Part shown: positions 24,131 to 28,700 of the stretch, piece after piece | Numbering within the stretch: position 1 is the stretch's first letter | Layout of the letters: every line of letters starts with the position of its first letter | DNA from: the human T2T-CHM13v2.0 reference genome, Homo sapiens | NCBI RefSeq assembly: GCF_009914755.1 | Contig: NC_060927.1 | Direction: 5' to 3' (one strand) | Length of the DNA stretch: 64,000 nt | The notes under the pieces: model-generated | What the model saw: the letters and a program-made list of their open reading frames with translations, nothing else | Database searches by the model: none | Told to the model about the DNA's origin: nothing | Made by a program: the position numbers and the translations under genes

Positions 24131-25778
24131 CTCCCTCTCCCTCTCCCTTTCATCTCCGTCTCCCGCTTTCCACGGTGCCCCCCTCCCTCGTCTCCGTCTC
24201 CCACTTTCCACGGTCTCCCTCTGTTGCCGAGGCTGGACTGTACTGCCACGATCTCGGCTCACTGCAACCTCCCTGCCTGATTCTCCTGCCTCAGCCTGCC
24301 GAGTGCCTGGGATTGCAGGCGTGCGCTGCTAAGCCTGACTGGTTTTTGTATTTTTTGGTGGAGACGGGGTTTCGCCGTGTTGGCCGGGCTGGTCTCCAGC
24401 TCCTGACCTCCAGTGATCTGCCCACCTCGGCCTCCCGAGGTGCCGGGATTGCAGACAGAGTCTCGCTCACTCAGTGCTCAATGTTGCCCAGGCTGGAGTG
24501 CAGTGGCGTGAACCTCCACCTCCCAGCCGCCTGCCTTGGCCTCCCAAAGTGCTGAGATTGCAGCCTCTGCCCCGCCGCCACCCTGTCTAGGAAGTGAGGA
24601 GCATCTCTGCCCAGCCGCCAATCATCTGGGATGTGAGGAGCCCCTCTGCCTGGCCACCCAGTCTGGGAAGTGAGGAGCACCTCTTCCTGGCCTTCACCCC
24701 GTGTAGGAAGTGAGGAGCGTCTCTGCCTGGCCGCCCATCATCTGGGATGTGGGGAGCGCCTCTGCCCGGCCACCCCGTCTGGGATGTGAGGAGCGCCTCT
24801 GCCCGGCCGCCCTGTCTGGGAGGTGAGGAGTGTCTCTGCCTGGCCGCCACCCCGTCTGGGAGGTGGGGAGCACCCCCGCCCGGCAGCCGCCCCGTCTGTG
24901 AGGTGGGCGTGCCCCCACCCGGCAGCCGCCCCGCCTGGGAGGTGAGGAGCCCCTCTGCCCGGCCGCCAATCCATCTGGGAGGTGTACCCACCAGCTCATT
25001 GAGAACAGGCCATGACGATGATGGCGGTTTTGCTGAATAGAAAAGGGGGAAATGTGGGGAAAAGAAAGAGAGATCAGATTGTTACTGTGTCTGTGTAGAA
25101 AGAAGTAGACATAGGAGACTCCATTTCGTTTTGTACTAAGAAAAATTCTTCTGCCTTGGGATGCTGTTAATCTATAACATTACTCCCAACCCAGTGCTCT
25201 CTGAAACATGTGCTGTGTCAACTCAGGGTTAAATGGATTAAGGGAAGTGCAAGATGTGCTTTATTAAACAGATGCTTGAAGGCAGTATGCTCGTTAAGAG
25301 TCATCACCACTCCCTAATCTCAAGTACCCAGGGACACAAACACTGCAGAAGGCCACAGGGTCCTCTGCCTAGGAAAACCAGAGACCTTTGTTCACATGTT
25401 TATCTGCTGACCTTCTCTCCACTATTGTCCTATGACCCTGCGAAATCCCCCTCTCTGAGAAACACCCAAGAATGATCAACAAATACTAAAAAAATTAAAA
25501 AAAAAAAAAAGAAAAGTTCAAATAAAGTGTATGAAAGAACTTTAAAAAAAAAAAAAGAAAAAAAAAGTGCGAAAATTAGCCAGACATGGTGGAGTATGCC
25601 TTGGGGTCCCAGCTACTCAGGAGGCTGAGGCTAGAAGATCACTTGAGCCTGGGAGGCAGAGGCTGCAGCAAGCCATGATTGTGCTACTGCACTCCAGCCT
25701 AGGTGACAGATGGAGACTCTGTCTCTAAATAAATAAATAAATAAATAAATCCTATTTTTAAATGCTAAAAAAAAAAAG
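24131..25778 (+). mobile_element. SVA retrotransposon (older, B/C-like) with 3'-transduced sequence
   Basis: Short CCCTCT hexamer head, antisense Alu-like domain, GC-rich VNTR (about 24565-24985), SINE-R (about 24985-25487), poly(A) tracts; TSD AAAATCTAG at 24122-24130 and 25779-25787; L1 ORF2 resumes exactly at AAGAAATGGATAAATTCC. Confidence 0.96.
25573..25750 (+). mobile_element. Old Alu right monomer (AluJ/FRAM-like) carried inside the SVA 3' transduction
   Basis: AAAATTAGCCAGACATGGTGG...GATCACTTGAGCCTGGGAGG...GACTCTGTCTC followed by a (TAAA)n tail; lies between the SVA poly(A) and the SVA TSD. Confidence 0.88.
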
Positions 25779-28700
25779 AAAATCTAGAAGAAATGGATAA
25801 ATTCCTCGACACATACACCCTCCCAAGACTAAACCAGGAAGAAGTTGAATCTCTGAATAGACCAATAACAGGCTCTGAAATTGAGGCAATAATTAATAGC
25901 TTACCAACCAAAAAAATCCAGGACCAGATGGATTCACAGCCGAATTCTACCAGAAGTGCAAGGAGGAGCTGGTACCATTCCTTCTGAAACTATTCCAATC
26001 AATAGAAAAAGAGGGAATCCTCCCTAACTCATTTTATGAGGCCAGCATCATCCTGATACCAAAGCCTGGCAGAGACACAACAAAAAAAGACAATTTTAGA
26101 CCAATATCCCTGATGAACATCGATGCAGAAATCCTCAATAAAATACTGGCAAACCGAATCCAGCAGCACATCAAAAAGCTTATCCACCATGATCAAGTTG
26201 GCTTCATTCCTGGGATGCAAGGCTGGTTCAACATACGCAAATCAATAAACGTAATCCAACATATAAACAGAACCAACGACAAAACCACATGATTATCTCA
26301 ATAGATGCAGAAAAGACCTTTGACAAAATTCAACCCTTCATGCTAAAAACTCTCAATAAATGAGGTATTGATGGGACATATCTCAAAATAATAAGAGCTA
26401 TCTATGACAAACCCACAGCCAATATCATACTGAATGGGCAAAAACTGGAAGCACTCCCTTTGAAAACTGGCACAAGACAGGGATGCCCTCTCTCACCACT
26501 CCTATTCAACATAGTGTTGGAAGTTATGGCCAGGGCAATTAGGCAGGAGAAGGAAGTAAAGGGCATTCAATTAGGAAAAGAGGAAATCCAATTGTCCCTG
26601 TTCGCAGATGACATGATTGTGTATCTAGAAAACCCCATCGTCTCAGCCCAAAATCTCCTTAAGCTGATAGGCAACTTCAGCAAAGTCTCAGGATACAAAA
26701 TCAATGTGCAAAAATCACAAGCATTCTTATATACCAATAAAAGACAAACAGAGAGCCAAATCATGAGTGAACTCCCATTCACAATTGCTTCAAAGAGAAT
26801 AAAATACCTAGGAATCCAACTTACAAGGGATGTGAAGGACCTCTTCAAGGAGAACTACAAACCACTACTTAATGAAATAAAAGACGATACAAACAAATGG
26901 AAGAACATTCCATGCTCATGGGTAGGAAGAATCAATATCGTGAAAATGGCCATACTGCCCAAGGCAATTTATAGATTCAACGCCATCCCCATCAAGCTAC
27001 CAATGACTTCCTTCACAGAATTGGAAAAAACTACCTTAAAGTTCACATGGAACCAAAAAAGAGCCTGCATTGCCAAGTCAATCCTAAGCCAAAAGAACAA
27101 AGCTGGAGGCATCATGCCACCTGACTTCAAACTATACTACACAAGGCTACAGTAATCAAAACAGCATGGTACTGGTACCAAAACAGAGATATTGACCAAT
27201 GGAACAGAACAGAGCCCTCAGAAATAATGCCGCATATCTACAACTATCTGATCTTTGACAAACCTGAGAAAAACAAGCAATGGGGAAAGGATTCCCTATT
27301 TAATAAATGGTGCTGGGGAAACCTGGCTAGCCATATGTAGAAAGCTGAAACTGGATCCCTTCCTTATACCTTATACAAAAATTAATTCAAGATGGATTAA
27401 AGACTTAAATGTTAGACCTAAAACCATAAAAACCCTAGAAGAAAACCTAGGCAATACCATTTAGGACATAGGCATGGGCAAGGACTTCATGTCTAAAACA
27501 CCAAAAGCAATGGTAACAAAAGACAAAATTGACAAATGGGATCTAATTAAAATAAAGAGCTTTTGCACAGCAAAAGAAACTACCATCAGAGTGAACAGGC
27601 AACCTACAGAATGGGAGAAAATTTTTGCAATCTACTCATCTGACAAAGGACTAATATCCAGAATCTACAAAGAATCAAACAGATTTACAAGAAAAAACAA
27701 ACAACCCCATCAAAAAGTGGGTGAAGGATATGAACAGACACTTCTCAAAGGAAGACATTTATGAAGCCAAAAGACACATGAAAAAATGCTCATCATCACT
27801 GGCCATCAGAGACATGCAAATCAAAACCACAATGAGATACCATCTCACACCAGTTAGAATGGCGATCATTAAAAAGTCAGGAAACAACAGGTGCTGGAGA
27901 GGATGTGGAGAAATAGGAACACTTTTACACTGTTGGTGGGACTGTAAACTAGTTCAACCATTGTGGAAGTCAGTGTGGTGATTCCTCAAGGATCTAGAAC
28001 TAGAAATACCATTTGACCCAGCCATCCCATTACTGGGTATATACCCAAAGATTATGAATCATGCTGCTATAAAGACACATGCACACGTGTGTTTATTGCG
28101 GCACTATTTACAATAGCAAAGACTTGGAACCGACCCAAATGTCCAACAATGATAGACTGGATTAAGAAAATGTGGCACATATACACCATGGAATACTATG
28201 CAGCCATAAAAATTGATGAGTTCATGTCCTTTGTAGGGACATGGATGAAGCTGGAAACCATCATTCTCAGCAAACTATCGCAAGGAGAAAAAACCAAACA
28301 CTGCATGTTGTCACTCATAGCTGGGAATTGAACAATGAGAACACATGGACACAGGAAGGGGAACATCAAACACCGGGGCCTGTTGTGGGGTGGGGGGAGT
28401 GGGGAGGGATAGCGTTAGGAGATATACCTAATGCTAAATGATGAGTTAATGGGTGCAGCACACCAACATGGCACATGTATACATATGTAACAAACCTGCA
28501 CGTTGTGCACATGTACCCTAAAACTTACAGTATAATTTAAAAAAATAATAAAAATAAAACATATTCACATATTTACGTATTCATGTATTTAAAATATATT
28601 CATTTATTTTACACTATGTGCAACTCATTTTTCTACTTAAGAATTAGAGAGATGACATTTCGGAGGCCCCTAATTCCAAATGCTGCCGCCTGTTTTTAGT

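What the first reader, a model, noticed from the sequence alone, without database searches (positions are those of the whole stretch)
25471..25787. SVA with a dead poly(A) signal and two stacked 3' transductions (three-generation record)
Seen: the SVA terminal signal reads GATCAACAAATACT (AACAAA at 25478-25483 instead of AATAAA), followed by poly(A) #1. Next is a 33-nt unique tag GAAAAGTTCA-AATAAA-GTGTATGAAAGAACTTT with poly(A) #2 starting 17 nt after the hexamer. Then comes about 200 nt containing an old Alu right arm, whose (TAAA)n tail provides AATAAA (25744-25749), with poly(A) #3 again 17 nt later. Only then does the TSD appear. Established: SVA/L1 read-through causes 3' transduction. Inference: grandparent, parent and this copy each added a segment. 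Loss of the SVA's own signal may have forced the read-through, and an Alu microsatellite tail was co-opted as the poly(A) signal.
Basis: partly seen in the sequence, partly recalled or inferred. Interest (0 to 1): 0.8.

Follow-up and report, generated by a model that had tools for sequence, protein, structure and literature searches.

The report
SVA with two stacked 3' transductions
An old SVA retrotransposon in a FHIT intron carries two short pieces of chromosome 14 and chromosome 8 picked up in successive jumps; this is a clean example of a process that is already well documented, and the two source copies no longer exist in this genome.

Summary
A full SVA (24131-25487, + strand) sits inside an L1 ORF2. 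It is followed by an A-rich tail, a 33-nt tag, a second A-tail, a 200-nt tag, a third A-tail, and only then the 11-nt target-site duplication.

Tag 1 matches one other place in T2T-CHM13 exactly, chr14:83,705,809-83,705,841 (-). Tag 2 maps to chr8:56,235,144-56,235,334 (94%; next best Alu 87%). There it is the right half of a full-length Alu plus 17 nt of flank. Each tag ends 17 nt after an AATAAA.

Serial ("nested", "concatenated") 3' transduction is the best reading, at about 0.8. Neither source locus holds an SVA in CHM13, and no sibling carrying either tag exists, so the two progenitors are inferred and were apparently lost.

The causal claim, that a dead signal forced read-through, is not supported:
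- The T>C is one of 14 private changes in 503 nt of SINE-R.
- The five other AACAAA copies are unrelated.
- An ATTAAA lies in the inherited tail.
- The parent also read through tag 1's intact AATAAA.

The phenomenon is already in print, so interest is low.

The parts
24120..24130 (+). 5' copy of the target-site duplication (aCaaaatctag) in the host L1 ORF2
   Evidence: The uninterrupted L1 paralogue at window 60334-60380 (-) has one copy, AGAAAATCTAG. This copy carries one G>C change.
24131..24164 (+). SVA 5' hexamer repeat (CTCCCT)n, short
   Evidence: TRF: period 6, 5.8 copies, 75% matches.
24165..24562 (+). SVA Alu-like region (antisense Alu fragments)
   Evidence: It is 84-94.5% identical to the same region of 20 related SVAs. 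It is partly complementary to the Alu arm of tag 2.
24563..24984 (+). SVA VNTR, about 420 nt
   Evidence: TRF: periods 37, 40 and 116, 24563-24984.
24985..25487 (+). SVA SINE-R, ending GATCAACAAATACT
   Evidence: 2253 first-look candidates in CHM13, 40 scored, best non-self match 96%; 22-27 mismatches in 503 against 29 relatives, with 14 private differences.
25478..25483 (+). AACAAA in place of the family's AATAAA
   Evidence: 6 exact copies of the 28-mer with AACAAA out of 475 matches within one mismatch. All 94 listed one-mismatch rows read AATAAA.
25488..25510 (+). Tail #1: A7 TT A14. The A7TT part is templated in this lineage. It contains ATTAAA at 25494-25499.
   Evidence: 16 of 28 related ends begin A5-9 TT(T)(T).
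25511..25543 (+). Tag 1: 33 nt transduced from chr14, with AATAAA at 25521-25526
   Evidence: the only other match in CHM13 at up to 3 mismatches is C14:83705809-83705841 (-), with 0 mismatches. The reversed-pattern control gave 0.
25544..25566 (+). A-tail #2 (A13 G A9)
   Evidence: It is absent from the chr14 locus, which continues AAAAGGAGTAAC.
25567..25766 (+). Tag 2: 200 nt transduced from chr8. It holds an Alu right arm from the mid A-linker onward, (TAAA)6 and 17 nt of flank. The AATAAA used is at 25744-25749.
   Evidence: C8:56235144-56235334 matches at 94% over 195 columns (7 substitutions and one TAAA indel). The next best Alu is 87%.
25767..25777 (+). A-tail #3 (A11; the last A is ambiguous with the TSD)
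   Evidence: The chr8 locus continues ATCACCCTTTAAT instead.
25777..25787 (+). 3' copy of the target-site duplication (aGaaaatctag)

Best explanation
This is one L1-mediated insertion of an SVA RNA that had already been through two earlier read-through cycles, that is, a serial 3' transduction.

Shown:
- The composite SVA / tail / tag 1 / A-tail / tag 2 / A-tail lies inside one TSD pair.
- Tag 1 is a copy of chr14:83,705,809-841 (-).
- Tag 2 is a copy of chr8:56,235,144-334 (+).
- Each tag stops 17 nt after an AATAAA and is followed by non-templated A's.

Inferred:
1. An SVA RNA that was polyadenylated at its normal site inserted on chr14 at catttt|aagaaaag. This copy is the 'grandparent'.
2. 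Its transcript ran past the SVA end, was cleaved after the chr14 AATAAA, and inserted into the A-rich middle linker of a full-length Alu on chr8. This copy is the 'parent'.
3. The parent's transcript ran past both the SVA end and tag 1's intact AATAAA. It was cleaved after the AATAAA in that Alu's (TAAA)n tail and inserted into an L1 in the FHIT intron.

Both progenitors are absent from CHM13. They most likely never reached fixation. Divergence points to an old event, of the order of 10 million years ago.
For: - Anatomy and a single TSD pair.
- Tag 1 is 33/33 identical to one other site in 3.1 Gb. No other hit appears at up to 3 mismatches, and the reversed control gives 0.
- For tag 2, chr8 scores 302 bits at 94%, against 207 bits at 87% for the next Alu and 80-86% for the rest (40 scored of 4697 candidates). 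The match runs 17 nt past the Alu tail into unique flank.
- At both sources the copied stretch ends where the locus diverges into non-A sequence, 17 nt after an AATAAA.
- Both copied stretches begin at L1-endonuclease-like sites: chr14 TTTT|AAGAAAAG, and chr8 inside CTACAAAAAACACAAAAATTAG. I read these sites off the sequence; the endonuclease preference itself is recalled knowledge.
- The process is documented. [quoted passage not shown] PMC12593883 reports 27 'concatenated' events (passages).
- The copy is old. SINE-R has 22-27 mismatches in 503 against 29 relatives, which differ from one another by 2.8% on average, and it has 14 private sites. Tag 2 differs from chr8 by 7 substitutions in 195 columns.
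Against: - No SVA lies at or near either source locus in CHM13. Reading 3 kb around each site shows none. There are no VNTR or SINE-R hits in chr14:83,700,000-83,709,999 or chr8:56,229,000-56,238,999.
- No second copy of either tag exists, so no sibling confirms that an SVA ever sat there.
- No close relative of the SVA body was found. Stretches carrying 3 private sites each occur nowhere else exactly. The one copy that shares 2 of 3 sites is only 93% identical overall.
- A-rich boundaries are also what microhomology-guided template switching or insertion into an A-tail would give, so they do not discriminate between the models.
- The first 5 nt of tag 2 (GTGCG) differ from chr8 (ACACA) at 4 of 5 places. 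This is unexplained.
Confidence: 0.8

Rival explanations
1. A template-switch or RNA-ligation chimera formed in a single TPRT event. L1 reverse transcriptase started on a polyadenylated chr8 transcript and jumped at the Alu's A-rich linker onto the A-tail of a chr14 transcript. It then jumped after 33 nt onto the A-tail of an SVA RNA. No SVA ever sat on chr14 or chr8.
For: - Both source loci are empty and no siblings exist.
- All junctions are A-rich, which favours microhomology jumps.
- Template switching by ORF2p is an accepted route to chimeric insertions (PMC13174262, passages). PMC12593883 invokes it for one SVA transduction (passages).
Against: - It needs two independent host transcripts, in the right orientation and polyadenylated at exactly these sites, to meet in one event, with two jumps that each land on a tail.
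- The chimeras described join a small RNA or mRNA 5' of an L1 without an internal A-tail.
- Tails between the segments are what nested transductions show.
Confidence: 0.08
2. Three separate insertions at one spot. The SVA inserted first with a plain A-tail. Later a 33-nt and then a 200-nt severely 5'-truncated retrocopy of chr14 and chr8 transcripts each landed in the pre-existing A-tail, so their own TSDs are invisible runs of A.
For: - A-tails are favoured L1-endonuclease targets (recalled, not tested).
- TSDs made of A's cannot be seen.
- The source loci are empty.
Against: - It needs two further rare events, both very short retrocopies of non-repeat transcripts, at the same 20-nt target and in the same orientation.
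- Tag 1 shows 0 differences in 33 and tag 2 shows 7 in 195. That gives no sign of different ages, though the numbers are too small to test.
Confidence: 0.04
3. The AATAAA>AACAAA change was already present in the grandparent and parent and forced the read-through that produced both transductions.
For: - AACAAA is rare: 6 of 475 matches within one mismatch of the 28-mer.
- This copy has two transductions.
- By comparison of two rates, part of the 14 private changes may predate the insertion. Private changes are 2.8%, while tag 2 suggests about 1.8% per lineage since insertion.
Against: - No parent or sibling survives to show its state.
- The change is one of 14 private substitutions in 503 nt. 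At that rate a hit somewhere in a 6-nt word has roughly a 16% chance (arithmetic).
- The five other AACAAA copies differ at nearby sites and so arose independently.
- Tail #1 sits at the normal place, so the RNA that founded the grandparent was cleaved normally.
- The parent also read through tag 1's intact AATAAA, which had worked one generation earlier.
- An ATTAAA remains at 25494-25499.
Confidence: 0.15

Closest known systems
Serial ('nested' or 'concatenated') SVA 3' transductions (HGSVC, Ebert et al., preprint 10.1101/2020.12.16.423102; Mob DNA 2025, PMC12593883)
   Same: SVA, then tag, then tag, with each tag followed by its own poly(A), the oldest tag nearest the SVA, and tags from different chromosomes. 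The cited passages describe exactly this.
   Different: - The published cases are young, polymorphic SVA_D-F/F1 insertions, and 84% of transduction-carrying copies could be traced to existing source elements.
- This is an old, diverged reference copy whose two sources are both gone from CHM13.
Catalogue of TE-driven transductions in T2T-CHM13 (Hoyt et al., preprint 10.1101/2021.07.12.451456)
   Same: Same genome and same class of event. The paper gives 55 highest-confidence SVA 3' transductions (passages).
   Different: - The passages speak of identified 'parents' and of 'progenitors and offspring', so a copy without a surviving source SVA may not be in the top confidence bin.
Alu A-tails that have decayed to (TAAA)n serving as polyadenylation signals
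   Same: The AATAAA that ended the parent's transcript lies in the (TAAA)5 tail of the chr8 Alu.
   Different: That such tails act as signals for host genes is recalled knowledge. I looked up no paper for it. Here the user of the signal was an SVA read-through transcript.
LINE-1 chimeric insertions by template switching or RNA ligation (PMC13174262)
   Same: Several RNAs joined in the same orientation inside one TSD pair.
   Different: In the passages read those chimeras carry the extra RNA 5' of the L1, and no internal poly(A) tracts are described. Here every segment carries its own tail.

Membership tests
SVA retrotransposon (full-length) | Hexamer repeat, antisense Alu-like region, VNTR, SINE-R ending in AATAAA-TACT, then an A-tail; flanked by a TSD | tested here: met
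   - Searches show the hexamer at 24131-24164 and the VNTR at 24563-24984.
- SINE-R is 94.6-95.6% and the Alu-like region 84-94.5% identical to other genomic SVAs.
- Searches show the TSD.
- The hexamer word reads AACAAA here.
SVA subfamily (A-F) | Diagnostic SINE-R positions of the named consensus sequences | not testable with these tools
   No consensus library or RepeatMasker was available. Divergence alone suggests an old subfamily.
3' transduction | Non-element sequence between the element's own tail and the 3' TSD | tested here: met
   25511-25766 lies between tail #1 and the TSD at 25777-25787.
3' transduction | The transduced stretch maps to a unique locus elsewhere | tested here: met
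   Tag 1 maps only to chr14. Tag 2 maps to chr8, 94% against 87% for the next best.
3' transduction | The transduced stretch ends 10-30 nt after a poly(A) signal and is followed by a non-templated A-tail | tested here: met
   AATAAA plus 17 nt for both tags. The source loci continue with non-A sequence.
3' transduction | The source locus has the element immediately upstream of the transduced stretch | tested here: not met
   - There is no SVA at either site in CHM13.
- There are no VNTR or SINE-R hits in 10 kb around each.
- Other humans and apes were not searchable. Non-reference or lost sources are usual for some published cases (9 non-reference sources).
Serial (nested) transduction | Two or more tags from different loci, each with its own tail, inside one TSD pair | tested here: met
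Serial (nested) transduction | Intermediate generation seen: an element carrying tag 1 only, or tag 1 followed by the genomic tag 2 | tested here: not met
   Tag 1 occurs only at chr3 and chr14. The tag 2 flank occurs only at chr3 and chr8.

The most novel reading that the evidence does not exclude
The copy is a fossil of two extinct, never-fixed SVA source elements from the early great-ape burst of SVA activity. If so, one or both progenitors, or siblings carrying tag 1 alone, may survive in another ape lineage at the orthologous chr14 or chr8 sites. That would give a dated three-step pedigree of an ancient SVA lineage, and would show whether AACAAA was inherited.
Probability: 0.25. Interest if true: 0.35.

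Novelty: new member of a known kind. Interest (0 to 1): 0.2.

Why it matters
It matters little beyond being a tidy textbook case. It shows that stacked transductions can be read from fixed, old SVAs as well as from young polymorphic ones. It also shows that the source copies of such lineages can vanish entirely, which fits propagation through short-lived, unfixed elements. The element is antisense to FHIT, which runs on the - strand according to the annotation handed over with the finding, so its three + strand poly(A) signals should not truncate FHIT transcripts.

Tried and rejected
1. Siblings by tag. Whole-genome pattern searches for tag 1 (up to 3 mismatches), for the tag 2 flank (up to 2) and for the tag 2 5' edge (up to 3) gave only the chr3 copy plus the two source loci.

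2. Siblings by private mutations. Two SINE-R stretches carrying 3 private sites each have no other exact copy. The one copy that shares 2 of 3 sites (chr1:147.75 Mb) is only 93% identical and has AATAAA.

3. An AACAAA lineage. The five other copies differ at neighbouring sites, so I rejected a shared lineage.

4. ADAR editing as the cause of the GTGCG/ACACA cluster at the 5' edge of tag 2.
   - The SVA Alu-like region is complementary to the tag 2 Alu arm (59 nt at 75%, 41 nt at 76%).
   - A chrX Alu reads ATGCA at this place, so the cluster could amount to 2-3 A>G changes.
   - Against this, 0 of the 4 private substitutions in the Alu-like arm are A>G (only 20 of 29 relatives had that region in the fetched locus).
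   - The idea is not supported, and the cluster stays unexplained.

5. Literature on this locus. A search for FHIT + SVA + transduction found 35 papers. Of the 10 listed, none concerns this element by title or abstract start.

6. Papers and tools I could not reach. Xing 2006 (PMC1693794) and Damert 2009 (PMC2775593) are not held. bioRxiv supplements are closed. So I cannot say the locus is absent from published transduction tables.

7. No subfamily name could be assigned, because no consensus library was available. I built no consensus and used pairwise and private-site counts only.
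Full report
**What is there.** The window is T2T-CHM13 chr3:60,946,001-61,010,000, inside a FHIT intron (the annotation handed over with the finding; one search confirms the place). One search shows an L1 ORF2 on the + strand, interrupted at 24130/24131 by a full-length SVA, also on the + strand. Its parts are:
- hexamer repeat, 24131-24164;
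- Alu-like region, to about 24562;
- VNTR, 24563-24984 (TRF);
- SINE-R, 24985-25487, ending GATCAACAAATACT.

After the SVA come:
- A7 TT A14 (25488-25510);
- a 33-nt unique stretch (25511-25543);
- A13 G A9 (25544-25566);
- 200 nt (25567-25766) made of an Alu right arm, (TAAA)6 and TCCTATTTTTAAATGCT;
- A11 (25767-25777);
- the L1 again.

The word aGaaaatctag (25777-25787) repeats aCaaaatctag (24120-24130). Another copy of the same L1 family in the window (60334-60380, - strand) reads the site uninterrupted, with one copy of AGAAAATCTAG. The pair is therefore a target-site duplication with one later G>C change. All of 24131-25776 arrived between its two copies.

**Where the tags come from.** The whole genome could be searched.
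- Tag 1 has exactly one other match at up to 3 mismatches, at C14:83,705,809-83,705,841 on the - strand, with 0 mismatches. The reversed-pattern control gave none. There the sequence reads ...cacatttt aa GAAAAGTTCAAATAAAGTGTATGAAAGAACTTT aaaaggagtaac....
- The end of tag 2 has one other match, at C8:56,235,307-334 with 2 mismatches.
- A DNA search with all of tag 2 puts C8:56,235,144-334 first, at 94% and 302 bits. The next Alu scores 87% and 207 bits, and the rest 80-86% (40 scored of 4697 candidates).
- On chr8 the stretch is the right half of a complete Alu (L004 1207-1512) plus the 17 nt beyond its (TAAA)5 tail. The locus then continues ATCACCC where chr3 has A's.
- Across 195 aligned columns there are 7 substitutions, two of them at CpG, and one TAAA indel.

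The Alu arm is therefore not a separate Alu insertion. It is truncated because the copied stretch starts in the A-rich linker of a chr8 Alu.

**Most likely mechanism.** The layout is that of a serial 3' transduction, which rests on established knowledge of L1-mediated SVA mobilisation. The steps below are inferred.
1. An SVA RNA cleaved at its normal site inserted on chr14 at TTTT|AAGAAAAG.
2. A transcript of that copy ran on to the chr14 AATAAA and was cleaved 17-21 nt later. It inserted into the linker of the chr8 Alu.
3. A transcript of that second copy ran past the SVA end and past tag 1's AATAAA. It was cleaved after the AATAAA in the Alu's (TAAA)n tail and inserted into the L1 on chr3.

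The process is in print. [quoted passage not shown] A 2025 study counts 27 'concatenated' events (PMC12593883, passages).

**What speaks against it, and the rivals.**
- Neither source locus has an SVA in CHM13. None is seen in the 3 kb read around each. A BLAST of the VNTR and SINE-R against 10 kb around each gives nothing; only the Alu-like part hits local Alus at about 77%.
- No other copy of either tag exists, so there are no siblings.
- SINE-R stretches holding three private sites each have no other exact copy. The one copy sharing two of three is 93% identical overall.

The two progenitors are therefore inferred, not seen. Two rivals remain: a template-switch chimera made in one event, and successive landings of two very short retrocopies in the A-tail. 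Both also predict A-rich junctions, so they cannot be excluded from this genome alone. Each needs more coincidences than the serial model. I put them at about 0.08 and 0.04, against 0.8 for serial transduction with lost sources. The remainder is left unassigned.

**Age.** The SINE-R differs from each of 29 fetched relatives by 22-27 of 503 positions, a mean of 4.9%. Those relatives differ from one another by 2.8% on average. The chr3 copy has 14 private positions (these 29 are the fetched ones among only 40 scored of 2253 candidates, so closer relatives could have been missed). Together with the tag 2 divergence, this points to an old insertion. With commonly used primate rates, which I recall rather than computed from data here, it would be of the order of 10 million years, with wide error. 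That would explain why unfixed source copies are gone. No subfamily name could be assigned.

**The 'dead signal' claim.**
- AACAAA is real and rare. Six exact copies of the 28-mer occur among 475 matches within one mismatch, and all 94 listed one-mismatch rows read AATAAA.
- The five other AACAAA copies differ at nearby positions and do not form a lineage.
- The T>C is one of the 14 private changes.
- Tail #1 sits at the normal place, so the RNA that founded the first source was cleaved normally.
- 16 of the 28 related SVA ends I could read start A5-9 TT(T)(T). The A7TT is therefore templated and carries an ATTAAA (25494-25499).
- The parent also read through tag 1's intact AATAAA.

Read-through here needs no dead signal. 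I give the causal claim about 0.15.

**Loose end.** The first 5 nt of tag 2 read GTGCG, where chr8 has ACACA and a similar chrX Alu has ATGCA. The SVA's antisense Alu-like region can pair with the tag 2 Alu arm, so I asked whether ADAR editing of the parent RNA could explain a run of A>G changes. The other arm shows 0 A>G among its 4 private substitutions. The idea has no support, and the cluster remains unexplained.

**Verdict.** The main interpretation is supported in kind but lacks the predicted source elements. The causal addition is not supported. This is a further example of a known process, and interest is low.

Noticed in passing
window 25488-25499, and loci L013-L041 and L045 (SVA 3' ends): Many related SVAs share a templated A5-9 TT(T)(T) A(n) start to their 'tail' (16 of 28 readable ends). 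In the TT form this makes an ATTAAA about 11 nt after the AATAAA. The cleavage site of this lineage therefore lies downstream of that motif, and part of what looks like poly(A) is inherited.
   Followed up: partly
window 25567-25571 against L004 1333-1337 (chr8): There is a cluster of 4 differences in 5 nt at the very start of tag 2 (GTGCG against ACACA; a chrX Alu has ATGCA). I tested an ADAR editing footprint and found no support for it.
   Followed up: partly
window 24213-24507 against 25607-25724: The SVA's antisense Alu-like region and the transduced sense Alu arm form imperfect inverted repeats (59 nt at 75%, 41 nt at 76%, 35 nt at 77%, 26 nt at 85%, 21 nt at 81%). The transcript could fold back on itself over about 1.2 kb.
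   Followed up: no
window 60334-60380 (- strand): A second L1 of the same family, in the opposite orientation, preserves the uninterrupted target site of the SVA insertion.
   Followed up: no
L033 (G000:C18, SVA end): This SVA's tail reads A7 TT A14 G, the same lengths as chr3's tail #1, before diverging. It is probably coincidence. Its SINE-R is 94.8% identical to chr3's.
   Followed up: no
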